DNA of 64,000 nucleotides from positions 32,001-96,000 of the forward strand of contig JBMOPW010000035.1 in NCBI GenBank assembly GCA_049322915.1, in the 5' to 3' direction. A program made the translations under genes and the position numbers. Shown here piece after piece: positions 32,616-53,161 of the stretch. The notes below the pieces were generated by a model. That model searched no databases, was not told the origin of the DNA, and saw only the letters and a list, made by a program, of their open reading frames with translations. Each line of letters begins with the position of its first letter. Positions within the stretch are counted from its first letter, which is position 1. Origin of the DNA: Candidatus Zhuqueibacterota bacterium. Lineage in GTDB: Bacteria > Zhuqueibacterota > Zhuqueibacteria > Thermofontimicrobiales > Thermofontimicrobiaceae.

Positions 32616-34577
32616 TCACTCTTTCTTCGTCAATTTTTCGTATTCCATTCCATGCTCCAGCTTAATCGTTTCTTCCGACATTTTGCCGGTGAAACAGGTG
32701 GTGTTCATGGGATAGACATGGGGATCGAAGAACTGGTAATAGAAATGCCAGACAATGATAGCAACCGTGGCCAGAATGGCTTCATAATAATGAGCGACGG
32801 TGCTGACATCCGAGACCAATTTCGGGAAATACTTCAACGAGATATTTTCAAACCACAAAATGAAGCCGGTCACGCTCATCACAATGGTGCCCCAGATGAG
32901 CGCCCAGTACTCCGCTTTTTCGATGTAGTTATAATACGCGAACTTCGGGCGATCTTTCCGCAGACCCAGATTGTACTGAACATTTTGAATCACATCGAAC
33001 AGATCCTTCAATTTGGGCAGCATTTCCGTAATATGCCGTTTGCCGCGTTTTGTGGTAATGACATAGAACACGTGATAGAACGCGAGCAGCACCATCAATC
33101 CGCCAGCCAGCCGATGCAGATATCCTCGCATGGCAAACCCGCCGTCCCAGCGGGTGAATGGCGCAGCCCACCACGCTTCAGGAAATTTCAGGGCAAAACC
33201 GGTGATCACCAGGGTGATGAATGTGCCCATCAAAATGAAATGCTGGATTCGTTCGTTCAGGGACAACCGCACCATGGTAATTCCGTGCGATAATTCCTCA
33301 AAACTGTGATCCTCCACCCCTTTGATTTTCGCCTTGAATTTATGGATGAAATCGATGAGATTGTGCATGAACATGCCGCCAATGGTACCCACGATGAGGA
33401 ATATATAAAATGTGGTCACATAATAGATTGTCTTCTGCGACGTGGACGATCCTTTGATATGAATCGACCCAATCGCAACCATGTCGCTCACGCCTGGATG
33501 GCAGCTACCGCATGTTTGCTGCAGATTGGCTTTATTAACGGATGACTTGGGGTCGCTGGAGTGCAGTATTTTATGAACACCATGGCAACTGGCGCAGTTC
33601 GCTGTGACGACTGACCCGGCGCGATTTGCCAGTCCATGATAGCTGTCGTTATAACTATCCACTGCTTCTTTTTTTAGTCCGTACTTGGTGACGATCTGTT
33701 CTGCTTCATGACATCTCGGACAGGTTGTCTTTGAAATGACGGTTGAAAAGACCGTCGATTTCGGGTCGGTATGGGATTTAATATCATGTTCGGTATGGCA
33801 ATCGGTACATACCGGTGAATCCGTTGCGCCCGCCAACAATCCCTTGCCATGCACGCCAGCCATATATTCATCGAAAATTCCCTGGTGGCATTGCGCACAT
33901 GTCCTGGGAATATTGAACTTATTTGTCAGAGAAACCGGATTGCTGGAAGGCTGTAAATTGTGAGCGCCGTGACAATCGCTACATTTGGCTGCCTGCATAT
34001 TTCCTTCCTCAAGCGCAGAGCGGTAATGGATGCTCGTTTTATACGCCGCTGCCGGCTCTGAAATCGGAATATTGAACTTTTTCACAATGTTGGGATCAGA
34101 ATGACATTCACCGCAGATTTCGGGTTGATTCAGAACGAACATTGTTGACAGCGAGTCATCGATGGGGAACACGTAATGGGAGGTGTGGCAACTCCAGCAC
34201 TCAGGCGCCTCGAGATTGCCTTTGGCCAGGCTCTTCCCGTGAACGCTGGCCATATACTCCTGAGTCACATCGTCGTGGCAATTCCCGCAGTTCGGTTTTT
34301 CAAGTTTTTCGTCATGCGGAAGTTCGGTGATGGCGCTGTGACAATCGACGCAGGAAAGTCCGGCATGAACTGAATTGGAAAATTTTTCGAAATGGACAAA
34401 GAGGCTATCCTCCTTCCCATCTTCGTTCAGCCGGGTCAATGCCTTGTCGCTGTGGCATTCCATGCAGTCTTCGCTTGAAATATCCTGGCTCGCTCCAATT
34501 CCGGGAAATAGCAATACCATGGAAATTATGAAAGTCAGATAAACCGAAACCAACTTGCCTGTCATACTGTTCCTCAT
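32616..34577 (-). CDS. 11-heme cytochrome c fused to cytochrome b membrane domain (CbcL-like quinol oxidoreductase)
   Basis: Signal peptide; 11 CxxCH; ERIQH...LHR...EKAEYWALIWG...AHYYEAILA...VWHFY. Confidence 0.9.
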   Translation of the reverse strand: MRNSMTGKLVSVYLTFIISMVLLFPGIGASQDISSEDCMECHSDKALTRLNEDGKEDSLFVHFEKFSNSVHAGLSCVDCHSAITELPHDEKLEKPNCGNCHDDVTQEYMASVHGKSLAKGNLEAPECWSCHTSHYVFPIDDSLSTMFVLNQPEICGECHSDPNIVKKFNIPISEPAAAYKTSIHYRSALEEGNMQAAKCSDCHGAHNLQPSSNPVSLTNKFNIPRTCAQCHQGIFDEYMAGVHGKGLLAGATDSPVCTDCHTEHDIKSHTDPKSTVFSTVISKTTCPRCHEAEQIVTKYGLKKEAVDSYNDSYHGLANRAGSVVTANCASCHGVHKILHSSDPKSSVNKANLQQTCGSCHPGVSDMVAIGSIHIKGSSTSQKTIYYVTTFYIFLIVGTIGGMFMHNLIDFIHKFKAKIKGVEDHSFEELSHGITMVRLSLNERIQHFILMGTFITLVITGFALKFPEAWWAAPFTRWDGGFAMRGYLHRLAGGLMVLLAFYHVFYVITTKRGKRHITEMLPKLKDLFDVIQNVQYNLGLRKDRPKFAYYNYIEKAEYWALIWGTIVMSVTGFILWFENISLKYFPKLVSDVSTVAHYYEAILATVAIIVWHFYYQFFDPHVYPMNTTCFTGKMSEETIKLEHGMEYEKLTKKE

Positions 34578-34624: not shown

Positions 34625-34640
34625 TGCAATTATCTTGCCA
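34625..34640 (-). promoter_or_regulatory. Sigma-54 promoter TGGCAAGATAATTGCA
   Basis: Near-consensus -24/-12 on the minus strand, 48 nt upstream of ATG 34577; a sigma-54 activator gene is adjacent. Confidence 0.75.
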
Positions 34641-35134: not shown

Positions 35135-36460
35135 ATGGAACTGAATCCATCCCTGACAAACGATATATTAGACTCAATTGGCGAAGGATTGTTCACAGTA
35201 AATAAGGATTTTAAGATTAATTATTTTAATCGGGCTGCCGAGCGAATTACAGGTCTGAAACGCAAGGACGTCTACGGCAAATTTTGCAAACATATTTTTA
35301 AGTCAAATCGATGCTTCATCAAATGCCCGATCGCCCATGTTTTGGAGACAGGGAAAAACATCTATGACCTGGAATCGAAGATCAGAAACGTCAATGGCAA
35401 TTTCATCCCGATCAAAATGAACGTCTCCATTCTGCGCAACAACGAAAATGAGCCGGTGGGCGGCGTGATTTCCTTTCGCGATATATCCGAGTTGGAGATA
35501 TTGCGTGATAAGCACATCAAAAAGAACCTGTTTTATGGCATCATCGGCCACACCAAAGTGATGCAGGAAATCTTCGAATTGATCGAGGAGATTTCCGATT
35601 CGGATGCCACTGTGCTCATTCAGGGTGAATCCGGCACAGGTAAGGAAATGGTTGCCAACGCCGTACAGGCCACAAGTCTGCGCAAAGATCAGCCGTTTGT
35701 CAAAGTGAACTGTTCGGTTTTCACGCCGCAACTTCTGGCCAGCGAGTTGTTTGGTCACGTGAAGGGCGCGTTCACCGGAGCAATAAAAGAGCGACCGGGT
35801 CGATTTGAAATTGCGGACGGTGGGACCATATTCCTGGATGAGGTCGGCGAAATGCCTCTGCAAATGCAGTTGCAGCTGTTACGGGTGCTGCAGGAAGGCA
35901 CCTTCGAGCGGGTTGGCGAATCGGAGACGCGCCGCGTTGACATTCGGGTGATTGCCGCGACGAATAAAAATATCAAAGCATCCATCGCAGATGGGCATTT
36001 TCGGGAGGATTTGTACTATCGGCTCAACGTGATTCCCATTGAAATTCCTCCGATCAAAAAGCGCCCGGAAGACATCCCGCACCTGATAAAACATTTTTTG
36101 AAAAAATTTTCATTGATCTATAATAAAAACATACACGACATCGATGATACTGCGCTCGAATTACTCACCCATTATCCCTGGCCGGGCAATGTCCGCGAAT
36201 TGGAAAATGCCCTGGAGTACGCGTTTGTGCGGACGAAAGATAAAAAGATTATCGAAGCGATTAAATTGCCGCCGAATGTTCGGGAGCACGCTGACTTATC
36301 GTTGAATCAACCAGGCGCGTGTGAAATCGATAGCGAGTCTTCTCACATCATGCACTTACTGGAAAAATATCAATGGAATAAAACGAAAGTCGCCAAAGAA
36401 CTTGGCATTGGTCGCAGCACGCTCTGGCGCAAAATGAAATCCTTCACTGAGAAGGCCTGA
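35135..36460 (+). CDS. PAS-domain sigma-54-dependent activator (one-component bEBP, Fis-type HTH)
   Basis: N-terminal PAS with C-x8-C-x3-CP; GESGTGKE, ELFGHVKGAFTGA, FLDEVG, FREDLYYRLNV, WPGNVREL, LGIGRSTLWRK. Confidence 0.93.
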   Translation: MELNPSLTNDILDSIGEGLFTVNKDFKINYFNRAAERITGLKRKDVYGKFCKHIFKSNRCFIKCPIAHVLETGKNIYDLESKIRNVNGNFIPIKMNVSILRNNENEPVGGVISFRDISELEILRDKHIKKNLFYGIIGHTKVMQEIFELIEEISDSDATVLIQGESGTGKEMVANAVQATSLRKDQPFVKVNCSVFTPQLLASELFGHVKGAFTGAIKERPGRFEIADGGTIFLDEVGEMPLQMQLQLLRVLQEGTFERVGESETRRVDIRVIAATNKNIKASIADGHFREDLYYRLNVIPIEIPPIKKRPEDIPHLIKHFLKKFSLIYNKNIHDIDDTALELLTHYPWPGNVRELENALEYAFVRTKDKKIIEAIKLPPNVREHADLSLNQPGACEIDSESSHIMHLLEKYQWNKTKVAKELGIGRSTLWRKMKSFTEKA

Positions 36461-36828: not shown

Positions 36829-36844
36829 TGGCATGAAATTTGAT
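36829..36844 (+). promoter_or_regulatory. Candidate sigma-54 promoter TGGCATGAAATTTGAT
   Basis: Correct -24/-12 spacing with TTGA variant, about 130 bp downstream of the putative UAS. Confidence 0.5.
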
Positions 36845-36868: not shown

Positions 36869-37318
36869 ATGTCTGAAATGTTAGGAAATCAATATTTTTT
36901 AACGCGCAAATACGCGCTTGCCGCTCGGGAACTCGAATCGGCTCTGGTGAAAGATCCGCGAAGTAAAGTCATTCGACGGAAGCTCATCATTTGTTTTATC
37001 CAGACCGGCAACATTGACAAGGCGGAAGAACTGTTTCTGGACCTCGTCCAACAGGACGTATCGTTCATCATTGAATCAGATCCTATCATCGATGACTGTC
37101 CCTGTCCGGAACTGGTAAACGATGTCGAGGCGCAGATAGCCGGCGAGAAAAACTCGCCTTCGTACATGTTGAAGTTGGGCATGCTCTGGTTGTATTGTGA
37201 CATTAGAAAATCGATTCACTATTTCACGAGTTTGCAAAAAATTGAACCGAACAATCAAATGGTAAAAATTGTGCTATTCCATCTCAAGTCATTTTTGTTG
37301 AGCAAAGAGGTATTGTAG
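36869..37318 (+). CDS. TPR-like cytoplasmic protein with DDCPCPE motif
   Basis: Helical TPR-like pattern (LGNQYF...A..LE.AL..DP; LGMLWLY...Y...L.KIEP); start re-set to ATG 36869 after GAGGGA. Confidence 0.7.
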   Translation: MSEMLGNQYFLTRKYALAARELESALVKDPRSKVIRRKLIICFIQTGNIDKAEELFLDLVQQDVSFIIESDPIIDDCPCPELVNDVEAQIAGEKNSPSYMLKLGMLWLYCDIRKSIHYFTSLQKIEPNNQMVKIVLFHLKSFLLSKEVL

Positions 37319-37407
37319 CACTTTGGCGTAAGTAAGAAACACTGGAAATAATCACTGTATTTTAATCCGTCGTTACATGTCATTAAATTGTTAGCAGAGA
37401 GGAACAA

Positions 37408-38733
37408 ATGAAAGTAAAACTTTTTACCATTTGTAGTCTGTTGCTACTCTCCATGATTCTTATTTTTACCTGGGGATGTACTGATAAATACAAACCCGCT
37501 CCCAGCGTTTTCTCCTCTGTGGAAGAATCAAGTTGTACGCACTGTCACCTTGATGCAACTCTACTGAAACAAGTGGCCACGCCAATTCCCCCGGATGAAG
37601 GCGAATCAGGCGAGGGTTGAGGCGGCGCTGTGTCTCAGTTAGAGGCATGGGAAATGGTACTTGTTGATAACAGTTTTCTGAATACAAAACACGGCAGCTT
37701 CGGATGCACGTCATGTCACAAGGGTAATAAAGACGCGTACGACAAAGAGACCGCTCACGTCAGCCTGGTCGCTGCGCCGAGCGAAAATGATGCCACGTAC
37801 TGCTCCGGTTGCCATGAGGATATTGTGGCTCATTATGCATCCTCCCTTCACAAGACACAAAAAGGGTACTTCAAGCGAATCGAAAATCGATTGGGGTACA
37901 GCATAGAAAGTGACGCGGGCATAATGGAGAAATATGATGAGGAATGCGGGAAATGCCATGTCAGTTGTGGGCAATGCCACATCTCCCGACCGGTTTCAGT
38001 AAAAGGCGGATTCATCGCCGGGCACAATTTTGGCGCGCCGACGCGGGATAACAATTGCGTGGCATGTCACGGCAGCCGCGTTGGGGCAGAATACCTCGGA
38101 CAAAACGAAAACTATGCGGCTGATGTCCACCGCTACAAACCAGGCGGCAGCAATTGCACCATGTGCCACACCGGCATGGAAATGCACGGGACCGGCGAGG
38201 AATTCGACTACCGTTACCTGAATACGGATATGCCGCGCTGTGAAAATTGTCATGCAGATGTCGACACAATTAATTTCTACCATCAAAAGCATGTGTCCAG
38301 CACCACGATACCGACGCTCTCCTGTCAGGTATGCCATTCACAGGATTATAAAAACTGCAATAGCTGCCACACCGGCGGCGCCGGCATTACCGGGGATTCC
38401 TATTTCAAATTCAAGATTGCCAAGAATAAATTCAATCTCGAATCTGCAAACCGTACCTATGATTACGTGGCAGTCCGGCACATTCCGATTGCGCCGGACA
38501 CATACGCAAGTTGGGGAATAACTGATTTACCAAATTACAACACTGAACCTACGTGGAAATATGCAACGCCGCACAACATTCAACGCTGGACCGCTCGGAC
38601 AGATACGACGGGTAGCACCCGATGCTCGAGCAAATGCCATAATTCGACGACCTATTATTTAACTTCAGCCGACTTATTCGACTATGAAGTCGAAGCAAAT
38701 AAAGATATTATTATGGACGACAAACTCAAATAG
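37408..38733 (+). CDS. Putative selenocysteine-containing multiheme c-type cytochrome lipoprotein (441 aa, Sec71 at TGA 37618-37620)
   Basis: Track ORFs 37408-37620 and 37630-38733 are in the same frame, separated by one TGA plus 3 sense codons; the lipobox (FTWG-C) is only in the first part; 10 CxxCH plus 1 CxxxCH; SECIS-like hairpin directly after the TGA. Confidence 0.8.
37628..37650 (+). other. Candidate bacterial SECIS hairpin for the multiheme cytochrome
   Basis: CTGTGTCTC-AGTTA-GAGGCATGG: 9-bp stem (3 G-U pairs), loop begins 16 nt after the UGA and contains GU. Confidence 0.65.
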
Positions 38734-38778
38734 AAACACTTAATTCATTTCAAATCATTTAATTTAGGAGGTACAGAG

Positions 38779-39783
38779 ATGTACAAGAAAATTCCTGTTC
38801 TGTTCTTGATTTTATCATTAGCTTTGTTCATGGTAGTTGGTTGCGATGACGACGAAACCACGGAACCTGAAGAAATTAATGAGTTCGAACTGTTAACGGA
38901 AGTCGGTGATGTTTACGTTGCTAATTACACAACCCAGGGTGGGTTGGGCGTCAACACGACCATCACTGCTGTATTCGACAACCTGACAGACGGCAATACC
39001 GCCAATGATCCGTATATCATTGACTACCGCTCCGCTGCGGATTACGCGATTGTTCATATTAAAGGCGCCCATTCAATGGCCATGACCGATCTGGTCGCGA
39101 AACTTGATGATGGCACCATTCCCAAAGATAAAACCATTTTGAACGTTTGCTACACCGGTCAAACGGCAAGCTCCGCCACTGCATTTTTGAACCTGTTAGG
39201 ATACGAAGCACAGAACCTGTCTTACGGCATGTGCTCGGTCGATACATCCTTCAGTAACACCAAACAGTGGAAAAACGCTGTGAAAACTGACGAACATGCC
39301 GGCGATGTTGTCTCTACAGCTTCCACCACCACGACAACACACGATTTCCCGACGCTGTCCACAGGTGGAACCACCGCCGAAGAAATCTTCAAAGCACGTT
39401 TCAATGAAGTGATTGCCGCAAGCTGGCCCAAAATTGATGCCAACTTAGTGTGGGATAATCCAGGCAACTACTTCATCGTCAATTACTGGCCGGCCGCCGA
39501 ATATACCAATCCAGGCCATATTCCCGGCGCTTACCAGTTCTCACCAAATACAACGCTGCTCAGCACAGCGCAGTTAAACCTGTTGCCGACGGATAAAACC
39601 ATTGTGGTTTACTGCTACACTGGTCAGACATCGGCTCAGATTTGTACCTATCTGACCATGCTGGGCTACGATGCAAAGAGCTTGCTGTACGGATTCAATG
39701 GTTTCGCTCATGGAATTATGACGAAAAACAAGTATGCCGGTTCAGCAGCACCTGGAACATACGATGCTATTTTAGAAAAATAA
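38779..39783 (+). CDS. Tandem rhodanese-domain lipoprotein (sulfurtransferase)
   Basis: Lipobox MVVG-C; two domains (IDYR...HIKGA / GHIPGA), each with a CYTGQT active-site loop; AGGAGG SD. Confidence 0.88.
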   Translation: MYKKIPVLFLILSLALFMVVGCDDDETTEPEEINEFELLTEVGDVYVANYTTQGGLGVNTTITAVFDNLTDGNTANDPYIIDYRSAADYAIVHIKGAHSMAMTDLVAKLDDGTIPKDKTILNVCYTGQTASSATAFLNLLGYEAQNLSYGMCSVDTSFSNTKQWKNAVKTDEHAGDVVSTASTTTTTHDFPTLSTGGTTAEEIFKARFNEVIAASWPKIDANLVWDNPGNYFIVNYWPAAEYTNPGHIPGAYQFSPNTTLLSTAQLNLLPTDKTIVVYCYTGQTSAQICTYLTMLGYDAKSLLYGFNGFAHGIMTKNKYAGSAAPGTYDAILEK

Positions 39784-39796
39784 CTTAACGAGAACG

Positions 39797-39829
39797 AGCG
39801 GCATTCTTTCACAGTGGAAGAATGCCGCT
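39797..39829 (+). terminator. Strong intra-operon hairpin or partial terminator between rhodanese and porin genes
   Basis: AGCGGCATTCTTTC...GGAAGAATGCCGCT followed by TTCATTTATT. Confidence 0.6.
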
Positions 39830-39864
39830 TTCATTTATTAAAACTTAAGCTGAGTAAACGAGCT

Positions 39865-41058
39865 ATGATACCAAAAATAAGAATAGGTCTTCTCAGTCTA
39901 TTGATGGTCTCTTTGAGTGTTGGCTATGTGTACGGGATCGATTTTCACGGCAAAACGTCCAACACCGTTTATAGCTATGAAGATACAACTCAACATACTC
40001 GCCTGTTTCAATTCATTCGCTTTAGCCTGGAATCACCCAAATTGAGCAACCTCTCTCTGAATACATCTCTCAGAGCTTTAACCGATCTCAACGAAACACT
40101 GGAAGACGAACAGCGATTCAAAGCTTACGCGCTCAATTTGCAGTACAAAAATCTGTTCAACCGAGTCGATCTCGTCCTCGGGCGCCAGTTTCTCCACCCG
40201 GGCGCCGCACTTGGAGGATTGGACGGTCTGTACACCAAAGTCAAAATTTCGAACCGAATGAATATCTCGGCGTACGCTGGCGCAGAAGCCCACTTCAACA
40301 GCAGCCTCAAAATTTACAAATCAGAGGACAGTTTTGTCGCCGGCGGCTTATTCGAAATGAATCGGTTCTTCTCCACAGGGACGCAATTGTTTTACCTGCA
40401 AAAATCCAATGAAGACGGATTGTTCTGGCAACTCGCCGGACTGAACCTGACCAATAGCTCGTTGCCCCGGACCAATGTCCGGTTGCAAGCGCACTTCGAT
40501 CTTCAAACATCCGCTTTTCACAGGTTGATGTTCTCGGCTAAACATGATGTGAATGATAAAATTTCACTCAATGCCGGCTTTAAAAATCAAATGCCGCAAA
40601 TCTACGCCAACTCCTTTTTCACACTATTTGATGTCGACGGTTACACCCAATTCAATGCTGGCTGCACCTACAAAATGGTTCAGAATCTCTTTCTGAGCGG
40701 GCAGTACCAACTCGTCCAGTTCGACCAGGAGTCGGCCAACCGCATTTTTTTCACCGTCAATAATCTGAACGGCAGCATTGGCGTCATTTATGAGACAGGA
40801 TACGCCGGCGAACAATTGGGGCTCATTCTCGACTATGCCCATTCCATCACACCTGCGTTGTTAGCGTCGATCAACATTGATTATTCCCGGTATAAAACAG
40901 AAAAAGTGTTCGAATACGAAAATCAGATCGCCAATGCGGTACGATTATCCTATCGTTTTCAACGTCACTGGTCCATCGATCTAGAGTATCAATGGTTGAC
41001 AAACCGTTTTAAAGAACAGGATTCACGAATTTTAAATCATGTCCACTTTAGTTGGTAA
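39865..41058 (+). CDS. Putative outer-membrane beta-barrel (porin of a porin-cytochrome complex)
   Basis: Signal peptide from ATG 39865; alternating amphipathic strands (LVLGRQF...LDGL), C-terminal aromatic residue (VHFSW); flanked by multiheme cytochromes. Confidence 0.7.
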   Translation: MIPKIRIGLLSLLMVSLSVGYVYGIDFHGKTSNTVYSYEDTTQHTRLFQFIRFSLESPKLSNLSLNTSLRALTDLNETLEDEQRFKAYALNLQYKNLFNRVDLVLGRQFLHPGAALGGLDGLYTKVKISNRMNISAYAGAEAHFNSSLKIYKSEDSFVAGGLFEMNRFFSTGTQLFYLQKSNEDGLFWQLAGLNLTNSSLPRTNVRLQAHFDLQTSAFHRLMFSAKHDVNDKISLNAGFKNQMPQIYANSFFTLFDVDGYTQFNAGCTYKMVQNLFLSGQYQLVQFDQESANRIFFTVNNLNGSIGVIYETGYAGEQLGLILDYAHSITPALLASINIDYSRYKTEKVFEYENQIANAVRLSYRFQRHWSIDLEYQWLTNRFKEQDSRILNHVHFSW

Positions 41059-41070
41059 GGGATAATAATC

Positions 41071-41949
41071 ATGAAAAAAATTGTATGTGTCGTGCTGGGG
41101 CTTCTTGTTGCTTTCTTTTTAAGCAATGTCTCAACGGCCCAGGAATTAGAACTCATCTTTTCCCATAAATATCACGCCATAGAGGTTGAAGCAGAATGCG
41201 AAGCCTGTCATGCTGCCTCGGCAAGCATGCTGTCAACCGATAACCTGTTGCCCGACATGGAAAAATGTTATACCTGCCACAGCCAGGATGAAGAATGCAG
41301 CAAATGCCACAAAGACCCGGACAATGCCATCGTCTATCCCCGAATCACGGATTACATCGCCAAGTTCCCGCACAGCACACACGCTGCCAAAGGACTGGCC
41401 TGCGAAAAATGTCATGCCGGAGTCGCTGAAAGTGGCAACATCCTGGAAAAACACCTGCCAACCATGGCCAGTTGCACCGACTGTCACGATCAGCTTGCCC
41501 GGGAGAATTATTGCTATACCTGCCATAACACCGGCGAGGCCCTGAAGCCTGGCGATCACAATTTAGCCTGGAACAAGGAGCATGGATTGGCTTCATACAC
41601 GGCCGATAACTCCTGCAAAACCTGCCATCCGGACGATATGTGTTTGAATTGCCACCGCGGCGATAATCTGGATCATCAGGTGCACTCACTGAATTTTGTG
41701 AATAATCACAGTCTCCAGGCAAAGGGCAACAAAGAGAATTGCTACACCTGTCATGAAGAATTGTCCTTCTGCGTCGACTGCCATCGCCAGCGAATGGTGA
41801 TGCCGCGGAACCACGCGACAGCGAGTTGGTCCAATACTTCTTCCGGAGGTGGGCATGCGCGAGCCGCGAAACTGGATATGGATTCATGCCTGAGCTGCCA
41901 TTCCGATGCCGCTGGAGATCCTGTGTGCGTTCAGTGTCACCAGAAATAA
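41071..41949 (+). CDS. Periplasmic 12-heme cytochrome c (c3/c7-like repeats)
   Basis: Signal peptide (STA-QE); FSHKYH / FPHSTH; 12 CxxCH. Confidence 0.9.
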   Translation: MKKIVCVVLGLLVAFFLSNVSTAQELELIFSHKYHAIEVEAECEACHAASASMLSTDNLLPDMEKCYTCHSQDEECSKCHKDPDNAIVYPRITDYIAKFPHSTHAAKGLACEKCHAGVAESGNILEKHLPTMASCTDCHDQLARENYCYTCHNTGEALKPGDHNLAWNKEHGLASYTADNSCKTCHPDDMCLNCHRGDNLDHQVHSLNFVNNHSLQAKGNKENCYTCHEELSFCVDCHRQRMVMPRNHATASWSNTSSGGGHARAAKLDMDSCLSCHSDAAGDPVCVQCHQK

Positions 41950-41992
41950 GTTCAATGTATTGTGGAAAATTGACGTCTTAGCCTGAGGGTGA

Positions 41993-42415
41993 ATGATGAA
42001 AACTTTTTTTACTCTGCTCATACTATCTCTGTCCACGGCTCTCGTCATTCTGAGCTGCGCGGAAGATAAAAATCCATTACCAAGCACCTCGCATCCGGAT
42101 GAATGGAATACTGTTGGCGCCGATAACTTCCATGGCAGCAAAGTATTAGCCGTCGGATCCAGTTCATGCAAAAGCTGTCACGGCGTCGACCTTAAAGGAA
42201 GCGACACCGGCGAAAGCTGTTTCAAATGTCACCAGAGCTATCCCCACTCCGAGGAATGGATGATGGCTGACAGTGATAATTCTCACAGTGAATATATCAA
42301 AAAGAATAGCGACGCCATGAATAAATGTAAAAACTGCCACGGCAGCAATCTGACCGGCGGGAAAAGCGGCGTCTCCTGTTTCAAATGTCATGCGGCTGAT
42401 ACATTGCCATTGTAA
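41993..42415 (+). CDS. Tetraheme cytochrome c lipoprotein
   Basis: Lipobox ILS-C; two repeats of HP..W...H...CK.CHG..L.G....SCFKCH. Confidence 0.88.
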   Translation: MMKTFFTLLILSLSTALVILSCAEDKNPLPSTSHPDEWNTVGADNFHGSKVLAVGSSSCKSCHGVDLKGSDTGESCFKCHQSYPHSEEWMMADSDNSHSEYIKKNSDAMNKCKNCHGSNLTGGKSGVSCFKCHAADTLPL

Positions 42416-42727: not shown

Positions 42728-44326
42728 ATGAAGAAATTGACTAAATTATTTTCCCGAATCAGTATCCGGCTATTCATTCTTCTCTCGCTGCACATTATCC
42801 TGGTTTTTGTGATTATCAACTATGTCAATTTCCATTATTTCGCTCATAAAATGGAAGGCTGTATGGCGGATTATGCCATTCAGGCCGGCAATTTGATCAA
42901 AGAGTCCACGCGAATCAGCATGTTACAAAACGACCGTGTGAACCTCGCTCGTATCATGACGAATTTGAACAGCGTTGAGTACATTGAAGGCATTCGAATT
43001 TATAACAAGAAAGGCGTCATTCAATTTTCCGGCGATTCCACAGAAGTAGGGCAAACAGTGAGCATTCATGACGAGCAGTGCATTTTTTGCCATGAAAGCG
43101 AAAAAGCCAGAGGCGCCATCCCTCAAAAAAATCGTTTCAGGGAATGCCCATCCACCAATGGCTATCGGGTGATGGGATTGATCAATCCCATTGAAAATTC
43201 ACCAGCATGCTATAACGCCGCCTGTCACGCGCATGCCAGCGACGAGACGATATTGGGACTGTTGGATATTCAATTGTCATTGAAAAAACTGGACGTCAAT
43301 ACCCGGGATGCGCGATCCAAGTCGTACATCTTTTATGGGATCATTACCATAATCTCGGCCATTGTATTCAACCGGATTATTCGCACGCAGATACAACGTC
43401 CGATTTCTGAACTGATTCAGGGCACGCAGCAAGTCGCGCATTTGAATCTGGAGCACATTATCCAGATCGACTCCCCTGAGGAAATGGCGAAGTTGGCCGC
43501 CTCTTTCAACAAAATGACGCTGAAATTGAAACAGGCTCAGGAAGAATTGAAAGAATGGTCCAACCGGCTGGAAGAGAAGGTGCAGCAGAAAACCGAAGAG
43601 TTGAGTCAGGCGCAGAGCCAATTGATCATGGCGGAGAAACTGGCTTCCATGGGGAAGCTTTCAGCGGTTGTCGCCCATGAGATCAACAATCCCCTCTCCG
43701 GCATTTTGACCTATTCCAAATTGATGATCAAAAGTCTCCAGCCTTATAAAAATGAACAGGCCGTCAGCAAGGCCATCGAAAATTTGAAAATCATCAGGGA
43801 CGAATCAAAGCGGTGCGGCGACATTGTCAGGAACCTGCTCATTTTTTCGAAAAAATCTTTCGGTGAGAAAAAGCAATCCAACCTGACATCGATACTCAAC
43901 AGAAGTATTGAACTGGTACAGCATAGCATCGCGATGCGCGAAATTCAACTGACAACAGATTTTGACACGGATGAAGCGCCCATCCATTGTGACGCTGCCG
44001 CTCTGGAACAAATGACGGTCGCGCTGCTGATCAATGCAATCGAAGCCATCCCTGAGGGATCGGGAAAAATAAACATCGCGTTGGAGAGAACAAATCAGGG
44101 GACGACGTACTCCATAAAAATCAGCGACAACGGCGTAGGCATCGATGAAGCGGCAATTCCCCATATCTTTGAGCCGTTTTATTCGACTAAGACCAATGAA
44201 AAAAGCGTGGGACTGGGATTAGCCGTGGTGTACGGCATCGTCGAACGTCATCAGGGCGCCATCCAGGTGAAATCACAAAAGGACGTGGGGACGATTTTCA
44301 CCATTGAGCTTCCTGTTTCAGAGTGA
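42728..44326 (+). CDS. Sensor histidine kinase with periplasmic heme-c-binding motifs, HAMP domain
   Basis: Two TM; periplasmic CIFCH and CYNAACH; EKLASMGKLSAVVAHEINNPL; DNGVGI, IFEPFYSTK, GLGLAV. Confidence 0.92.
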   Translation: MKKLTKLFSRISIRLFILLSLHIILVFVIINYVNFHYFAHKMEGCMADYAIQAGNLIKESTRISMLQNDRVNLARIMTNLNSVEYIEGIRIYNKKGVIQFSGDSTEVGQTVSIHDEQCIFCHESEKARGAIPQKNRFRECPSTNGYRVMGLINPIENSPACYNAACHAHASDETILGLLDIQLSLKKLDVNTRDARSKSYIFYGIITIISAIVFNRIIRTQIQRPISELIQGTQQVAHLNLEHIIQIDSPEEMAKLAASFNKMTLKLKQAQEELKEWSNRLEEKVQQKTEELSQAQSQLIMAEKLASMGKLSAVVAHEINNPLSGILTYSKLMIKSLQPYKNEQAVSKAIENLKIIRDESKRCGDIVRNLLIFSKKSFGEKKQSNLTSILNRSIELVQHSIAMREIQLTTDFDTDEAPIHCDAAALEQMTVALLINAIEAIPEGSGKINIALERTNQGTTYSIKISDNGVGIDEAAIPHIFEPFYSTKTNEKSVGLGLAVVYGIVERHQGAIQVKSQKDVGTIFTIELPVSE

Positions 44327-44407
44327 AATCCGCCCCGTGAAATGGTGCCGATTCCGCTGCAGATGACTTCCATCAGAACTTATTGAAAATATTTCGAGGT
44401 TTATTTT

Positions 44408-45772
44408 ATGAACAACAAAGATATCAGCATTCTGATTGTCGATGATGAATTTTCGGTGCGGGACTCGCTCTGCCAATGGTTCAAAGCAGAGGGCTTTCAT
44501 GTGGCGACAGCGGAAAGTGCGAATACTGCGTTCGAAATGTTCAAACGTCAGACCTGGGATATTGTTCTGCTGGATATCAGAATGACGGGGATGGACGGGA
44601 TCGAATTCAACAGGCACATCATGAGTGTGGACAAAAGCGTCATCGTCATCATGATCACTGCATTCGCCACCGTCGAAACGGCGGTGCAGGCGATTAAGGA
44701 TGGGGCGTTTGACTATATTTCAAAACCAATTGATCCGGAATATCTATCGCATATCGTCCGCAATGCCCTGGAAAAACGGCAACTGGCGCGGGAGAATATT
44801 CAACTTCGGGAGCGGATCGAAGATTTGACCACGCCGGATGATATTATTGGCACGTCGGCGCGGCTGCGGGACGTGCTGAAGATGGTGGCCTCGGTCGCCA
44901 AATCCGATAGCACCGTGATGATCCGCGGTGAAAGCGGCACAGGGAAAGAACTGATTGCGCGCGCCATTCACAGCAATTCCCATCGCCGGTACGCGCCGAT
45001 CATCTCCATCAATTGCGGCGGAATGACTGAGTCGTTGCTGGAGAGTGAATTATTCGGCCATGAAAAAGGCGCCTTCACCGGCGCGGAACGACTGCGGATT
45101 GGCAAATTGGAGCGCGCCAATAAAGGTACAGTTTTTTTCGATGAAATCGGGAACATCAGCATGAAGATGCAAATGGACTTGCTGCGCGTGCTGGAAACAA
45201 AGCAGTTCACCCGACTGGGCAGCGAAAAACAGGTTGAAGTGGATTTTCGGGTAATCAGCGCCACAAATAAAGACCTGGAAAAGGCGGTCAAGTCCGGCGA
45301 TTTCCGCGAGGATTTATATTTTCGGTTGAATGTCATCTCGATTGAAATGCCTACGCTGCGCGATCGAAAAGAGGATATTCCGTTGCTGGCGCGATTCTTC
45401 TTCAATAAATACAGGCAATCCATGTCCAAGCCGATCAAGGACATATCCCAGGACGCAATGGAAACACTATTGAGCTACGAGTGGCCCGGCAACATCCGTG
45501 AATTGAGAAATGTGATCGAACGCGCAGTTGTCGTCTGCGACAATATTGTGATCAAACCCGACCATTTCACATTCCCATTTCGGGACAAATTCACATCGGC
45601 GGCATTCACAGATTACAGTCTGGAGGGCGCTGAGAAGATGCAGATTCAGCGGGTGTTGAAGCAAACCGGCGGCAACATTTCCAGGTCAGCAGAGATTCTG
45701 AAAATCGACCGCACGACGCTGTATAACAAGCTTAAAAAATTTGATCTCAACAAAATGACTTCATTCGAATGA
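44408..45772 (+). CDS. Sigma-54-dependent response regulator (NtrC/AtoC family)
   Basis: REC (IVDDE, LLDIRM, KP), GESGTGKE, GAFTGA, WPGNIREL, C-terminal Fis HTH. Confidence 0.94.
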   Translation: MNNKDISILIVDDEFSVRDSLCQWFKAEGFHVATAESANTAFEMFKRQTWDIVLLDIRMTGMDGIEFNRHIMSVDKSVIVIMITAFATVETAVQAIKDGAFDYISKPIDPEYLSHIVRNALEKRQLARENIQLRERIEDLTTPDDIIGTSARLRDVLKMVASVAKSDSTVMIRGESGTGKELIARAIHSNSHRRYAPIISINCGGMTESLLESELFGHEKGAFTGAERLRIGKLERANKGTVFFDEIGNISMKMQMDLLRVLETKQFTRLGSEKQVEVDFRVISATNKDLEKAVKSGDFREDLYFRLNVISIEMPTLRDRKEDIPLLARFFFNKYRQSMSKPIKDISQDAMETLLSYEWPGNIRELRNVIERAVVVCDNIVIKPDHFTFPFRDKFTSAAFTDYSLEGAEKMQIQRVLKQTGGNISRSAEILKIDRTTLYNKLKKFDLNKMTSFE

Positions 45773-47430: not shown

Positions 47431-47506
47431 AATTTCTCCTTCCTAATAGAATGATAATTGGGTACCACGTGCGCAGGATATTCAATGCATCATTCGCCTC
47501 ATTCAC

Positions 47507-48301
47507 TTAGATGCGGCGAAGGCTCAAGTTATTCAGGTCTTTCTCCAGATTTGTCGGAACGACTTGAATCAGCCAGCCATCATGATACGGAGAGGTATTT
47601 AATTTATCCATCTCGCGTTCCAGGCGCTTGTTCAAAGCGACAATCTTACCGCCTAGTGGCGCCCACACCATGTGATTGAGATAGTCTTCCGAGATAATTC
47701 GCACACATAAATTCCCCTGTGATATCTCATTATTGACAAGCGGGAATTCTATTGAATTGATCGTTCCCATGCAGCCAGCGAACGTTTCCCCCAAACCCAG
47801 CGTGCAGATGCCGTCGCTATTCAATTTTGTCCAGGAGTGCTGACCTAATAAATAATACGGCGCTCCTTCGCTATTCTGCTGCGCGTCGTTCTGGAGTTGT
47901 AGGGATGATTGCGTTTCAGTTGCCCGTTCACTGAATTTCTTCGCACGAAAAATGACGCCAGCCAATTCTTCAAAATCAAACGGTTTGGGAATACAATCAA
48001 ATGCACCTGTCCTGAAAATTTTCACGGCATTGGCGTGTGAAGCATAGCCGGTGATGATGATGATTGGAATTGTCGCATTCAATTTTCTGGCATATTCGAT
48101 CACTTCGATTCCGGATTTACCAGGCAACATGAGATCCGACAGTATTAATTGATATTGATTTTTATCGAGTTTATCGAAAGCGCCCTCTGCGCTTTGCGCC
48201 ATATCGACATGAAATCCTTCGACGCTTAATATTCGTCTGGCTGCTTCAGCAACCACCAGTTCATCTTCGACCAGCAGAATATGATTATTTGGGTTCGTCA
48301 T
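47507..48301 (-). CDS. Receiver domain fused to a GcvH-like domain lacking the lipoyl Lys
   Basis: REC (LVEDE, SDLMLP, PKPF); HSW...LGL...APLGGKIVALN...PYHDGW. Confidence 0.85.
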   Translation of the reverse strand: MTNPNNHILLVEDELVVAEAARRILSVEGFHVDMAQSAEGAFDKLDKNQYQLILSDLMLPGKSGIEVIEYARKLNATIPIIIITGYASHANAVKIFRTGAFDCIPKPFDFEELAGVIFRAKKFSERATETQSSLQLQNDAQQNSEGAPYYLLGQHSWTKLNSDGICTLGLGETFAGCMGTINSIEFPLVNNEISQGNLCVRIISEDYLNHMVWAPLGGKIVALNKRLEREMDKLNTSPYHDGWLIQVVPTNLEKDLNNLSLRRI

Positions 48302-49832: not shown

Positions 49833-49931
49833 TTTTTATCCTCACAGTTTTATTATCGATCTCCGGTCAGCATTTCATGACCCAAATGGCAAACGCATCA
49901 CTCGAACTTCTGTTCCTTGAACTGATTGCTT

Positions 49932-53127: not shown

Positions 53128-53161
53128 AATTTCAAAAAACTTATTTCAGGAGAAATGAACA

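What the first reader, a model, noticed from the sequence alone, without database searches (positions are those of the whole stretch)
36869..42415. Candidate outer-membrane sulfur/selenium redox conduit: Sec-cytochrome + tandem rhodanese + porin + 12-heme + 4-heme lipoprotein
Seen: six co-oriented, closely spaced genes encoding a TPR-like CPC protein, the Sec multiheme lipoprotein, a double-rhodanese lipoprotein (two CYTGQT loops), a predicted beta-barrel, a 12-heme periplasmic cytochrome and a 4-heme lipoprotein. Established: porin plus multiheme cytochrome clusters form trans-outer-membrane electron conduits, and rhodaneses carry sulfane sulfur or selenium. The Geobacter extHIJKL... cluster combines rhodanese, porin and a multiheme selenoprotein and has been linked to selenite/tellurite handling. 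Inference: an analogous but differently built system for respiring or detoxifying S0/polysulfide or Se compounds, in a non-Geobacter and probably FCB-group organism. This is my best candidate for an undescribed system in the window.
Basis: partly seen in the sequence, partly recalled or inferred. Interest (0 to 1): 0.9.

Follow-up and report, generated by a model that had tools for sequence, protein, structure and literature searches.

The report
Selenocysteine cytochrome, rhodanese and porin conduit
This gene cluster encodes an 11-heme selenocysteine cytochrome that always travels with a sulfur-carrier (rhodanese) protein and here sits beside an outer-membrane porin and two more cytochromes, so it is probably an undescribed machine for respiring sulfur-type compounds.

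Summary

- **Selenocysteine.** The in-frame TGA is almost certainly selenocysteine (Sec). It sits in a G-E-G-U-G-G motif in 23 of 25 related loci. Cys-type relatives exist, and the genome has selA, selB, selD and tRNA-Sec.
- **Core module.** The Sec cytochrome pairs with a rhodanese. All 33 loci with Sec or Cys at the site have a rhodanese gene next door. Only 1 of 5 loci without Sec/Cys does.
- **Porin.** It models as a 22-strand beta-barrel (pLDDT 94.6). In the loci where a porin gene was found, the 12-heme cytochrome gene comes next.
- **Not an Ext ortholog.** The Sec cytochrome does not match the ExtKL/MccSep model, has 11 heme motifs rather than 5, and carries Sec in a different place.

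Best reading (about 0.55): a molybdenum-free reductase for polysulfide/S0, possibly also Se. It would be fed from a quinol-oxidising c/b cytochrome through a porin-cytochrome conduit. It is analogous to Geobacter ExtHIJKL/MccSep but built from unrelated parts. Substrate, direction and surface versus periplasmic location are inferred, not shown.

The scan has noted this family before on other DNA. I found no paper describing it.

The parts
32616..34577 (-). Divergent inner-membrane quinol-side module: 11 CXXCH motifs fused to a b-type cytochrome membrane domain (CbcL-like by architecture).
   Evidence: 11 CXXCH. Ni_hydr_CYTB E 5e-12 plus cytochrome c7/c3 domains; formate-DH gamma-like, 64.6 bits, below its cut-off. 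A homolog lies near the Sec cytochrome in 9 of 25 loci at better than 30% identity (L022, L025, L026, L033, L034, L036, L037, L042, L046); a tenth, L039, has a 24% hit at E 7e-6.
34626..34640 (-). Sigma-54-like -24/-12 element (TGGCAAGATAATTGC, 1 mismatch) about 50 nt upstream of the c/b cytochrome gene.
   Evidence: The window-wide count of such matches is not above chance (77 found, 75 expected), so only its position speaks for it.
35135..36460 (+). PAS-domain sigma-54 activator (enhancer-binding protein), the likely regulator of the cluster.
   Evidence: Sigma54_activat E 7e-71, PAS, HTH_8. A homolog lies directly upstream in L022, L023, L025, L036, L037, L043 and L046 and in L059, L065 and L071.
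36829..36843 (+). Sigma-54-like -24/-12 element (TGGCATGAAATTTGA, 2 mismatches) 26 nt before the conserved TPR start.
   Evidence: Weak: the consensus match is not above chance, and only the position is suggestive.
36869..37318 (+). Small cytoplasmic TPR protein with a DDCPCPEL motif. Role unknown; possibly an assembly or chaperone factor.
   Evidence: TPR_19 E 2e-7; conserved start MSEMLGNQYF; the CPC motif is kept in 6 of the 7 sequences that cover the site, the window included (L027 ends before it). No signal peptide is seen. Found upstream of the Sec cytochrome in 6 of 25 loci and in L059, L065, L070 and L071.
37408..38733 (+). Lipoprotein multiheme cytochrome with selenocysteine at residue 71: 441 aa, 10 CXXCH plus one CX3CH, giving 11 heme sites.
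   Evidence: There are 11 invariant motif His against 10 invariant non-motif His. The only conserved Cys or Sec outside the heme motifs and the lipobox is U71.
37618..37620 (+). UGA read as selenocysteine, inside the motif G-E-G-U-G-G.
   Evidence: TGA at this codon in 23 of 25 loci; in 35 of 40 site-covering matches. Cys-type homologs GEGCGG and GESCGG; selA, selB, selD and tRNA-Sec are in the genome; the bases TGAGGCGG are nearly invariant, third codon positions included.
37628..37650 (+). SECIS-like hairpin: 9 pairs, loop AGUUA, apex about 21 nt after the UGA.
   Evidence: 19 of 23 homologs have an MFE hairpin with its apex about 19-28 nt after the UGA. No single conserved register was found; the RNAalifold consensus is only -0.33 kcal/mol; z-score near 0 for the 79-nt stretch.
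38779..39783 (+). Tandem-rhodanese lipoprotein. Both domains carry an active-site Cys (CYTGQT twice), and an acidic run (DDDETT) follows the lipid Cys.
   Evidence: Rhodanese E 1.6e-22, 2 stretches. C124 and C279 invariant in 21 of 21; best PDB relatives are thiosulfate sulfurtransferases; acidic N-terminus.
39796..39830 (+). Strong hairpin (16 pairs) followed by a U-rich tract between the rhodanese and porin genes. Likely a terminator or attenuator that separates two expression units.
   Evidence: a comparable GC-rich hairpin plus U tract lies at the same junction in 7 of 7 loci checked, with different sequences.
39865..41058 (+). Outer-membrane 22-strand beta-barrel.
   Evidence: pLDDT 94.6, pTM 0.84, 22 strands; best Foldseek matches are outer-membrane porins and the FimD usher barrel; weak Pfam OMP hits in 11, 10 and 5 of 111 family members; 242 relatives at E<=1e-3.
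41071..41949 (+). Periplasmic 12-heme cytochrome, the candidate for insertion into the barrel.
   Evidence: 12 CXXCH; 11 of the 12 CXXCH motifs are invariant in full in 56 homologs; the third (C76-C79-H80) and C289 of the last are conserved at 90% or more. It comes next after the porin gene in the loci that have one (12 nt downstream here); predicted complex with the porin has weak support, score 0.47 against best control 0.00.
41993..42415 (+). 4-heme lipoprotein cytochrome.
   Evidence: 4 CXXCH. Lipobox ILSC read. Homolog after the 12-heme gene in L022, L023, L027, L028, L034 (weak, partial hit, E 4e-9) and L037, L062, and L065 and L066.
42728..45772 (+). Sensor histidine kinase (42728-44326), whose predicted outer domain holds a CIFCH motif, and a sigma-54 response regulator (44408-45772).
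   Evidence: HAMP, HisKA, HATPase_c; Response_reg plus Sigma54_activat. The CXXCH motif is read. The same pair follows the cluster in L062 at 56% and 72% identity.

Best explanation
The cluster encodes a selenium-dependent, molybdenum-free reductase system for zero-valent sulfur (polysulfide/S0), possibly also Se oxyanions. It has two modules.

**Catalytic module (shown by comparison).** This is an 11-heme lipoprotein cytochrome with one selenocysteine in a glycine-rich loop (G-E-G-U-G-G) between heme 1 and heme 2. Its obligate partner is a lipoprotein with two active rhodanese domains.

**Proposed chemistry (inferred).**
1. The rhodanese cysteines pick up sulfane sulfur as persulfides from polysulfide or S0.
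2. The selenolate of Sec71 attacks this sulfur, or polysulfide directly, giving a Se-S intermediate.
3. The neighbouring heme reduces the intermediate and releases sulfide.

That heme is the one of the 11 for which no invariant distal histidine exists. Sec may itself be its sixth ligand.

**Supply module (partly shown, partly inferred).**
1. A quinol-oxidising 11-heme c/b fusion on the opposite strand takes electrons from the quinone pool.
2. A periplasmic 12-heme cytochrome sits in a 22-strand outer-membrane barrel and carries them outwards.
3. A 4-heme lipoprotein and the Sec cytochrome receive them.

**Regulation (inferred).** A PAS/sigma-54 activator and a heme-motif sensor kinase with a sigma-54 response regulator control expression. 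A hairpin between the rhodanese and porin genes sets the ratio of the two modules.
For: **Sec is real**
- One frame of 441 aa needs TGA read-through.
- TGA sits at the same codon in 23 of 25 loci, 17 of 24 match rows among relatives and 35 of 40 site-covering matches in the phylum sample.
- Protein sequence is conserved on both sides of the TGA.
- Cys-type homologs exist.
- The downstream 367-aa ORF would have a GTG start and no signal peptide.
- The Sec machinery is complete.
- A hairpin follows the UGA in 19 of 23 homologs.

**Coupling to rhodanese**
- All 33 loci with Sec/Cys at the site have an adjacent rhodanese-domain gene. It is tandem in 30, short in L065, and single-domain in L068 and L069.
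- Of 5 loci whose homolog has Arg or Leu at the site, an altered loop with neither Sec nor Cys, or a deleted arm, 4 have no rhodanese. The fifth has a 115-aa remnant.
- Both rhodanese cysteines are invariant in 21 of 21.

**Heme count**
- There are 11 heme motifs against 10 invariant distal His, and no other conserved Cys.

**Conduit**
- The 22-strand barrel model is confident.
- The porin gene is followed by the 12-heme gene in the loci that have it.
- In L057 and L058, which lack both the Sec arm and the rhodanese, the 11-heme lipoprotein gene lies directly beside porin and 12-heme genes. By my recall this resembles the Mtr-type layout.
- Complex prediction for porin with the 12-heme cytochrome gave weak support. 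The median score was 0.47 (runs 0.61, 0.39, 0.47) against a best control of 0.00. Partner pLDDT was at least 72, and the runs agreed in at least 11% of contacts. The mark was reached by 116 of 157 solved complexes and 2 of 215 mismatched pairs. At 0.60 or under it was reached by only 18 of those 157 and by both mismatches. Mtr-type complexes are solved, so the pass may reflect likeness.

**Analogy**
- Geobacter MccSep (ExtKL) is a Sec multiheme polysulfide reductase essential for S0 respiration. It is encoded beside the rhodanese ExtH and the porin ExtI (PMC13510729, Introduction, Results and Discussion read; PMC6148476 and PMC5877670, passages read).
Against: - There is no experiment and no expression data.
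- The Sec cytochrome could not be modelled (pLDDT 51). The position of Sec relative to any heme is therefore unknown, and invariant Lys315, Lys384, Tyr314 and Tyr385 are alternative ligands.
- No sequence homology to MccSep was detected, so its chemistry cannot be transferred by descent.
- The SECIS-like hairpin has no single conserved register and is not more stable than shuffles in the window.
- Fourteen of 25 loci show no porin-cytochrome module within about 8 kb. Several of those have the c/b fusion directly after the pair. That fits a periplasmic enzyme as well as a surface one.
- The window's own Sec cytochrome lacks the acidic N-terminus (TDKYKP) that its rhodanese has.
- The support for porin-cytochrome binding is only weak.
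- The losses of Sec and rhodanese come from few lineages: two genera in one family, plus one genus in another.
Confidence: 0.55

Rival explanations
1. Same enzyme pair, but periplasmic, as MccSep is. The Sec cytochrome and rhodanese face the periplasm and take electrons from the c/b fusion and the 12-heme cytochrome. The 22-strand barrel is then an entry channel for polysulfide or selenite rather than a sheath for a cytochrome.
For: - MccSep is periplasmic (PMC13510729, Results read).
- A title in that paper's reference list proposes ExtI as a selenite uptake porin (the paper itself was not read).
- Fourteen of 25 loci have the pair without a porin module nearby. In L033, L034, L036 and L042 the c/b fusion follows the pair directly.
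- The paralogs in L068 and L069 appear to lack a lipobox.
- The window's Sec cytochrome has no acidic tail after the lipid Cys.
Against: - In the loci where a porin gene was found the 12-heme gene comes next, 12 nt downstream here. By my recall this is the pattern of porin-cytochrome pairs.
- Twenty-two strands exceeds the 16 to 18 I recall for substrate porins.
- The complex prediction gave weak support (score 0.47, best control 0.00).
- Sec-less homologs stay beside porin and 12-heme genes without a rhodanese.
- The rhodanese carries an acidic run like the Bacteroidetes surface-export signal K-(D/E)2 (PMC5080379, abstract read).
Confidence: 0.25
2. The system runs in the oxidative direction. 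It would take electrons from sulfide, S0, thiosulfate or metal sulfides at the cell envelope, with a Sec- or Cys-type heme site acting as in TsdA or SoxAX, and pass them inwards to the quinone pool.
For: - His/Cys hemes catalyse thiosulfate oxidation in TsdA and SoxAX, and the MccSep authors note the mechanisms may be each other's reverse (PMC13510729, Discussion read).
- An exported rhodanese is induced in Acidithiobacillus on metal sulfides (cited in PMC6148476, passage read).
- Multiheme chains are reversible (my knowledge).
Against: - The only characterised Sec multiheme enzyme is a reductase (PMC13510729).
- The membrane partner resembles quinol-oxidising c/b fusions by architecture.
- I looked for no oxidative sulfur genes, so nothing here speaks for oxidation.
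Confidence: 0.1
3. A metal (Fe/Mn) or electrode-reducing conduit, or a selenite/tellurite detoxification system, in which Sec and rhodanese are accessories rather than the catalytic centre for sulfur.
For: - The porin, periplasmic multiheme and lipoprotein multiheme layout is that of the metal-reducing conduits described in PMC6148476 (passages read).
- Deleting ExtI impairs selenite and tellurite reduction (PMC5877670, passages read).
- MccSep also reduces selenite, less efficiently than polysulfide (PMC13510729, Results read).
Against: - Sec/Cys at the site is tied to a rhodanese neighbour (33 of 33 loci against 1 of 5). A plain electron wire does not predict this.
- Sec-less homologs that keep the porin module lose the rhodanese. 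This suggests the plain-conduit role belongs to those variants.
Confidence: 0.07
4. The TGA is a true stop. The locus would then encode a 70-aa monoheme lipoprotein and a separate 367-aa cytochrome.
For: Gene callers split it this way. Most of the 120 best database homologs are 340-391 aa proteins that cover only about 80% of the query.
Against: - The second ORF would start at GTG with no signal peptide, although its hemes must be attached outside the cytoplasm.
- Frame and residues are conserved across the TGA in 23 of 25 loci.
- Cys replaces the stop in P0024, P0119 and L065.
- The Sec machinery is present.
Confidence: 0.03

Closest known systems
Geobacter sulfurreducens ExtHIJKL(MNOPQS) with MccSep (ExtKL, GSU2937-2936). 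Sources: PMC13510729, PMC6148476, PMC5877670.
   Same: - The list of part types matches: a multiheme c-type selenoprotein, a rhodanese-like lipoprotein, an outer-membrane barrel, a 12-heme cytochrome, a lipoprotein cytochrome and a membrane b-type cytochrome module.
- Sec lies in a flexible loop next to glycine (D-G-U-P there, G-E-G-U-G-G here).
- Sec/Cys-type variants exist in both families.
   Different: - No detectable sequence relationship: NF040886 gives no hit at E<=10.
- 11 heme motifs here against 5 in MccSep.
- Sec lies near the N-terminus, between hemes 1 and 2. In MccSep it lies in a C-terminal Ig-like domain.
- No conserved heme-ligating Cys here; MccSep has C239.
- This protein is a lipoprotein; MccSep is soluble and periplasmic.
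- The rhodanese is 334 aa with two active sites; ExtH is 49 kDa.
- The membrane module is a c/b fusion, not Rieske plus cytochrome b.
- No ExtJ equivalent was seen.
Porin-cytochrome conduits: MtrCAB of Shewanella, and OmbB-OmaB-OmcB and ExtEFG of Geobacter (PMC6148476, passages read; Mtr details from my own knowledge).
   Same: - An outer-membrane barrel gene lies adjacent to a periplasmic multiheme gene and lipoprotein multiheme genes.
- ExtEFG likewise combines a barrel, a lipoprotein cytochrome and a periplasmic dodecaheme.
   Different: - The barrel has 22 strands; MtrB has 26 by my recall.
- No NCBIfam or strong Pfam membership was found for any part.
- The outer cytochrome carries Sec and has a rhodanese partner.
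Sud-Psr of Wolinella succinogenes: a rhodanese-type polysulfide-sulfur transferase feeding a molybdenum polysulfide reductase. Recalled, not read here. Psr is mentioned in the Discussion of PMC13510729.
   Same: A dedicated rhodanese-fold sulfur carrier is associated with a respiratory polysulfide reductase.
   Different: - The reductase here has hemes and Sec, not molybdopterin.
- The rhodanese here is a two-site lipoprotein.
His/Cys-ligated heme enzymes TsdA, SoxAX and DsrJ, and octaheme tetrathionate reductase OTR (PDB 1SP3).
   Same: - These are multiheme c-type sulfur enzymes with one non-bis-His heme.
- The family profile hits OTR chain 1sp3_A at E 5e-7 over residues 216-306.
- One heme here lacks an invariant distal His.
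   Different: - The similarity to OTR covers about 90 residues only, and TIGR04315 scores 12 bits against a cut-off of 375.
- The candidate special residue here is Sec, not Cys or Lys.

Membership tests
MccSep / ExtKL (NCBIfam NF040886) | Match to the family model above its cut-off (250 bits). | tested here: not met
   No hit for the read-through protein at E<=0.01 or E<=10. The best match anywhere in the genome scores 34.6 bits, at another locus.
MccSep / ExtKL (NCBIfam NF040886) | Five conserved CXXCH motifs followed by an Ig-like C-terminal domain (PMC13510729). | tested here: not met
   There are 10 invariant CXXCH plus one CX3CH/CXXCH. The fold of the C-terminal part could not be judged (pLDDT 51).
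MccSep / ExtKL (NCBIfam NF040886) | Sec in a D-G-U-P loop of the C-terminal domain, plus a strictly conserved heme-ligating Cys (C239). | tested here: not met
   Sec is residue 71 of 441, in G-E-G-U-G-G. No conserved Cys exists outside the heme motifs and lipobox.
Bacterial selenoprotein (Sec decoding) | In-frame UGA conserved among homologs, with Cys-containing homologs aligned at the same position. | tested here: met
   TGA in 23 of 25 loci and in 35 of 40 site-covering matches. Cys forms are P0024, P0119 and L065.
Bacterial selenoprotein (Sec decoding) | SECIS stem-loop directly downstream of the UGA. | tested here: inconclusive
   Nineteen of 23 homologs have an MFE hairpin with its apex about 19-28 nt after the UGA. 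RNAalifold finds no shared register (-0.33 kcal/mol), and the window's fold is not better than shuffles.
Bacterial selenoprotein (Sec decoding) | selA, selB, selD and tRNA-Sec present in the genome. | tested here: met
   selA 561.6 bits. selB 364.6 bits. selD 408 and 374 bits, the second with its own TGA. tRNA-Sec 63 bits against a gathering score of 47.
Bacterial selenoprotein (Sec decoding) | Selenium shown in the protein. | not testable with these tools
   Needs mass spectrometry or 75Se labelling.
Rhodanese sulfurtransferases (PF00581) | Rhodanese fold with an active-site Cys in a six-residue loop. | tested here: met
   PF00581 E 1.6e-22, two stretches. CYTGQT occurs twice, and both Cys are invariant in 21 of 21. 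The closest PDB sequences are thiosulfate sulfurtransferases. That six residues marks sulfurtransferases rather than phosphatases is my recall.
ExtH / ExtI (Geobacter rhodanese lipoprotein and porin) | Sequence membership of the Geobacter families. | tested here: inconclusive
   No NCBIfam 'selenite/tellurite reduction operon' model matched the rhodanese or porin. I did not verify that ExtH and ExtI models exist in the library, and I had no Geobacter sequences to compare.
Porin-cytochrome (Mtr/Pcc-type) outer-membrane conduit | Large outer-membrane beta-barrel. | tested here: met
   22 strands, pLDDT 94.6. Foldseek matches outer-membrane barrels.
Porin-cytochrome (Mtr/Pcc-type) outer-membrane conduit | A periplasmic multiheme cytochrome encoded beside the barrel and inserted into it. 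| tested here: inconclusive
   Adjacency is met in every locus with the porin. Insertion has only weak predicted support: score 0.47 against best control 0.00.
Porin-cytochrome (Mtr/Pcc-type) outer-membrane conduit | Surface-exposed lipoprotein cytochrome that receives the electrons. | not testable with these tools
   Two lipoprotein cytochromes are encoded. Their side of the membrane is unknown. Acidic N-termini occur in 13 of 24 Sec-cytochrome homologs, but not in the window's copy.

The most novel reading that the evidence does not exclude
This would be a trans-outer-membrane sulfur-respiration conduit whose terminal reductase is a surface-exposed selenoprotein. Sec71 would be the sixth ligand of, or the nucleophile beside, the one heme that lacks a distal histidine. 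It would take sulfane sulfur handed over by a dedicated two-site rhodanese lipoprotein. That would make it an extracellular selenoenzyme and a second, independently evolved Sec-heme solution to S-S bond reduction. It would let FCB-group and other bacteria reduce insoluble S0 or polysulfide, or Se, outside the cell without molybdenum.
Probability: 0.27. Interest if true: 0.87.

Novelty: new variant of a known kind. Interest (0 to 1): 0.76.

Why it matters
How bacteria respire elemental sulfur without a molybdenum polysulfide reductase was only answered for Geobacter in 2026, with the 5-heme selenoprotein MccSep. This cluster points to a second family, unrelated by sequence, that combines selenocysteine, hemes and a rhodanese.

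- **Spread.** It is widespread in uncultured lineages (KSB1, Calditrichia and others). Forty of 151 sampled genomes of the phylum have a match, and 2315 database proteins match at E<=1e-3.
- **Annotation.** The gene is routinely mis-annotated as two ORFs.
- **If the reading holds.** It would add a large hidden group of sulfur or selenium respirers to sediment and biofilm budgets. It would give a natural series of Sec, Cys and no-Sec variants for studying Sec-heme catalysis. It would also make testable whether sulfur can be reduced at the cell surface through a porin-cytochrome wire.

Tried and rejected
**Structure and complex prediction**
- The AlphaFold2 model of the Sec cytochrome from a 24-row alignment was too poor to use (mean pLDDT 51, pTM 0.37). 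I ran no fold search on it, and the position of Sec relative to the hemes stays open.
- The complex prediction of Sec cytochrome with rhodanese was not run. The tool does not accept a protein read through a stop codon, so binding of the pair was not examined.
- The ESM Atlas look-up of the read-through protein was likewise not accepted.

**Comparison with MccSep**
- I tried to obtain true MccSep sequences for a profile comparison.
- NF040886 found nothing above its cut-off in the own genome, in 5 other genomes that hold this family, or in 81 genomes of the phylum of G041 (no positive control).
- No direct alignment with MccSep, ExtH or ExtI was therefore possible.

**RNA and promoter elements**
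- RNAalifold found no convincing shared SECIS structure.
- The sigma-54 consensus scan was not above chance window-wide: 77 matches found, 75 expected.

**Expression data**
- No RNA holder was listed for the stretch. I laid no reads.
- The two DNA holders were not examined further.

**Earlier notes and literature**
- Place-based look-up of earlier notes for this genome gave nothing.
- Searches that found no description of this family:
  - ExtH / rhodanese / Geobacter / selenite
  - selenocysteine / multiheme / rhodanese / lipoprotein
  - KSB1 / multiheme / porin / extracellular electron transfer
  - undecaheme / selenocysteine, 0 papers
  - selenoprotein / multiheme cytochrome / rhodanese / polysulfide
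- The selenoprotein table of PMC13188914 (passages around my search terms seen) named three cytochrome or CXXCH selenoproteins: ExtKL, GSU2204-family and TIGR04315-family proteins. The window protein matches neither ExtKL nor TIGR04315 (12 bits against a cut-off of 375); the GSU2204-family model did not appear among its matches at E<=10.
- PMC13490349, PMC12545173 and PMC11475568 held nothing relevant in the passages found.
- I did not open the supplements of PMC13510729 (data S1, S2). They may list homologs that bear on overlap with this family.

Full report
**What is in the sequence.**
Between 36833 and 42415 the + strand carries six closely spaced ORFs.
- A 161-aa TPR-like protein.
- Two ORFs in one frame, split by a single TGA (37408-37620 and 37630-38733).
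- A 334-aa protein with two rhodanese domains.
- A 414-aa ORF with no strong family match.
- A 292-aa cytochrome.
- A 140-aa cytochrome.

Reading TGA 37618-37620 through gives one 441-aa protein. Motif counts are 10 CXXCH plus CSSKCH in that protein, 12 CXXCH in the 292-aa protein and 4 in the 140-aa protein.

The divergent upstream gene (32616-34577, minus strand) has 11 CXXCH fused to a b-type cytochrome membrane domain. A PAS/sigma-54 activator lies between it and the cluster. A histidine kinase and a sigma-54 response regulator follow the cluster. Its start, 36869, is the conserved start of the TPR protein, and its "39865 protein" is the barrel from its likely ATG.

**The TGA is selenocysteine.**
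- Among 41 related genomes, 22 have a match, and 17 of the 24 match rows contain exactly one in-frame TGA.
- In 25 loci from named public contigs (KSB1, Calditrichia, Ignavibacteria, Electryonea and others), 23 have TGA at the same codon. The motif is G-E-G-U-G-G or a near variant, with conserved protein on both sides.
- In 151 sampled genomes of the phylum, 40 have a match at E<=1e-40. Thirty-five of the 40 matches that cover the site carry the TGA.
- Cys-type relatives exist: GEGCGG in P0024 and L065, and GESCGG in P0119.
- The second ORF on its own would begin with GTG and have no signal peptide.
- The genome has selA and selB, two selD copies, one itself with a TGA, and a tRNA-Sec above the Rfam threshold.
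- The bases TGAGGCGG are almost invariant, third positions included.
- Nineteen of 23 homologs fold into a hairpin whose apex lies about 19-28 nt after the UGA. No single register is shared, so I rate the SECIS evidence as moderate.

**The protein family.**
- All 24 aligned homologs have a lipoprotein signal.
- Ten CXXCH motifs are invariant. An eleventh is CX3CH in most homologs and CXXCH in three.
- There are 11 invariant motif histidines but only 10 invariant histidines elsewhere. Apart from the heme motifs and the lipid cysteine, Sec71 is the only conserved Cys/Sec.
- One heme therefore has no conserved distal His. Sec71 is a candidate for its sixth ligand or for the residue facing its open side. 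Invariant K315, K384, Y314 and Y385 are alternatives.
- I could not settle this.
- The family profile has one distant hit in the PDB, octaheme tetrathionate reductase 1SP3, at E 5e-7 over about 90 residues.
- Database homologs number 2315 at E<=1e-3. Most of the best 120 are 340-391 aa fragments that start after the TGA, named 'hypothetical' or 'multiheme c-type cytochrome'.

**The fixed partner is a rhodanese.**
- In 24 of 25 loci a tandem-rhodanese gene directly follows the cytochrome gene.
- Both active-site cysteines are invariant in 21 of 21, and the proteins are lipoproteins.
- I pooled the window, the 23 TGA loci, and the further loci fetched from genomes. All 33 loci with Sec or Cys at the site have a rhodanese-domain gene next door.
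  - It is tandem in 30.
  - It is a short form in the Cys-type L065.
  - It is a 152-aa single-domain lipoprotein in the paralogs L068 and L069.
- Five loci have a homolog without Sec/Cys: Arg in L028, Leu in L066, an altered loop in L056, and the whole arm deleted in L057 and L058.
  - Four of them have no rhodanese.
  - L056 keeps a 115-aa remnant.
- These exceptions come from few lineages: one genus of family f17, and two genera of family f5. I give no statistic.
- The pattern still argues that the rhodanese serves the Sec residue.

**The porin module.**
- The 414-aa protein has 242 relatives at E<=1e-3.
- With 111 of them, AlphaFold2 gives a confident 22-strand barrel (pLDDT 94.6, pTM 0.84).
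- Foldseek's best PDB matches are outer-membrane porins and the FimD usher barrel. A minority of family members touch Pfam OMP families.
- In the loci where a porin gene was found, the 12-heme cytochrome gene comes next.
- The module is present in 11 of the 25 named loci.
- A co-fold of barrel and 12-heme cytochrome scored 0.47 (runs 0.61, 0.39, 0.47) against 0.00 for the best of three controls.
  - Partner pLDDT was at least 72, and run-to-run contact agreement at least 11%.
  - The tool rates this as weak support. The mark was reached by 116 of 157 solved complexes and 2 of 215 mismatches. At 0.60 or under it was reached by only 18 of those 157 and by both mismatches.
  - Similar complexes are solved, so this may reflect likeness.
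- In L057 and L058 the Sec-less 11-heme lipoprotein gene sits directly beside porin and 12-heme genes. This is the layout I recall for Mtr-type conduits, and it suggests the 11-heme protein is the outer partner of the barrel.

**Two expression units.**
A 16-pair hairpin with a U-rich tail lies between the rhodanese stop and the porin start (39796-39830). A hairpin plus U tract of different sequence lies at the same junction in 7 of 7 loci checked. Only about 35 nt separate it from the porin start. I infer attenuated read-through rather than a separate promoter.

Sigma-54-like -24/-12 matches lie before the TPR gene and before the divergent c/b cytochrome gene. Such matches are not enriched in the window, so this is only suggestive. 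The adjacent sigma-54 activator is conserved.

**Comparison with the known.**
The nearest known system is Geobacter extHIJKL(MNOPQS).
- ExtH is a rhodanese lipoprotein, ExtI a porin and ExtKL a pentaheme selenoprotein (PMC6148476 and PMC5877670, passages read).
- In August 2026 ExtKL was shown to be MccSep (PMC13510729, Introduction, Results and Discussion read).
  - It is a periplasmic tetramer with five hemes per subunit.
  - Heme 2 has His/Cys ligation.
  - Sec325 sits in a mobile D-G-U-P loop.
  - It reduces polysulfide, and less well selenite, and is essential for S0 respiration.

The window's system has the same kinds of parts but fails every membership test for MccSep that I could run.
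- No match to NF040886, even at E<=10.
- Eleven heme motifs, not five.
- Sec near the N-terminus in a different motif.
- No conserved ligating Cys.
- A lipoprotein rather than a soluble protein.

The genome has no true MccSep elsewhere; the best match is 34.6 bits against a cut-off of 250. I had no positive control for that model and no Geobacter sequences, so remote structural kinship is not excluded.

**Mechanism and its rivals.**
I favour, at about 0.55, a Sec-dependent reductase for sulfane sulfur. The rhodanese would supply the sulfur. The c/b fusion, the 12-heme cytochrome in the barrel and the 4-heme lipoprotein would supply the electrons.
- *Shown:* the selenoprotein status (by comparison), the pairing with rhodanese, the barrel fold and the gene linkage.
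- *Inferred:* the substrate, the direction, the Se-S chemistry and the topology.

The main rival, at about 0.25, keeps the chemistry but places it in the periplasm, with the barrel as a substrate channel.
- It is favoured by the many loci that lack the porin module and by those where the c/b fusion follows the pair.
- The rhodanese's acidic run after the lipid Cys (DDDETT) resembles the Bacteroidetes surface-export signal K-(D/E)2 (PMC5080379, abstract read). The window's Sec cytochrome has TDKYKP instead, so this hint is mixed.

The other rivals rank lower: oxidative operation, a metal or Se/Te role, and a true stop codon.

**Novelty.**
Five literature searches and the selenoprotein table of a 2026 review (passages seen) turned up no description of this family.

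Earlier notes of this scan report the same family on other genomes: e1-2500143, e1-1114470, e1-2132433, e1-3607559, e1-3247177, e1-4113947 and e1-2370419. They agree with what I found independently here and are not independent evidence.

I class the finding as a new variant of a known kind. It uses the same solution as ExtH/ExtI/MccSep, namely Sec, hemes, a rhodanese and a porin, but in an unrelated and larger protein family and a different envelope arrangement.

Noticed in passing
window 13451-16225 (-) and 12622-13167 (+): A second multiheme c / b-type cytochrome fusion (923 aa; Paired_CXXCH, cytochrome c7/c3 and Ni_hydr_CYTB domains) lies next to a small cytochrome c554-like protein. The window therefore holds two quinol-side c/b fusions.
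   Followed up: no
window 50928-54292 (+): A 4Fe-4S dicluster protein, an NrfD-type membrane subunit and a cytochrome c3-family protein lie in a row. A sigma-54-like element with 1 mismatch at 50928-50942 precedes them. This looks like a Qrc/ACIII-like quinone-interacting module.
   Followed up: no
window 46258-50735 (-): Three proteins carry a glycine-cleavage H-protein (lipoyl-type) domain, and two of them are fused to a response-regulator receiver. A HAMP histidine kinase lies among them. This is an unusual receiver-GcvH architecture.
   Followed up: no
window 42728-44326 (+): The sensor kinase after the cluster has a CIFCH heme-binding-type motif and a CYNAACH motif in its predicted outer domain (read). 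This suggests a heme-based redox sensor. The kinase/regulator pair also follows the cluster in L062.
   Followed up: partly
L028 6248-7993 (+), and the same position in L066: Where the rhodanese is missing, a 581-aa multiheme cytochrome sits between the Sec-less cytochrome and the porin. By eye its C-terminal end looks like a type IX secretion sorting domain; I did not test this.
   Followed up: no
G000:C2:57472-58398 (-): One of the two selD copies has an in-frame TGA, so it is probably itself a selenoprotein.
   Followed up: no
window 21660-32187 (+): A 1449-aa hybrid two-component regulator (Reg_prop/Y_Y_Y, kinase, receiver and AraC HTH) is followed by a 1919-aa FG-GAP/Kelch protein with a Por secretion tail. 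An alpha-L-rhamnosidase lies at 16860-19715. This is polysaccharide-type surface biology next to the respiratory genes.
   Followed up: no
L068 4238-6087 and L069 4636-6402: Two genomes carry a second, more distant Sec-type paralog (motif K-G-E-G-U-G-G). It appears to have a plain signal peptide instead of a lipobox, and it is followed by a 152-aa single-domain rhodanese lipoprotein.
   Followed up: partly
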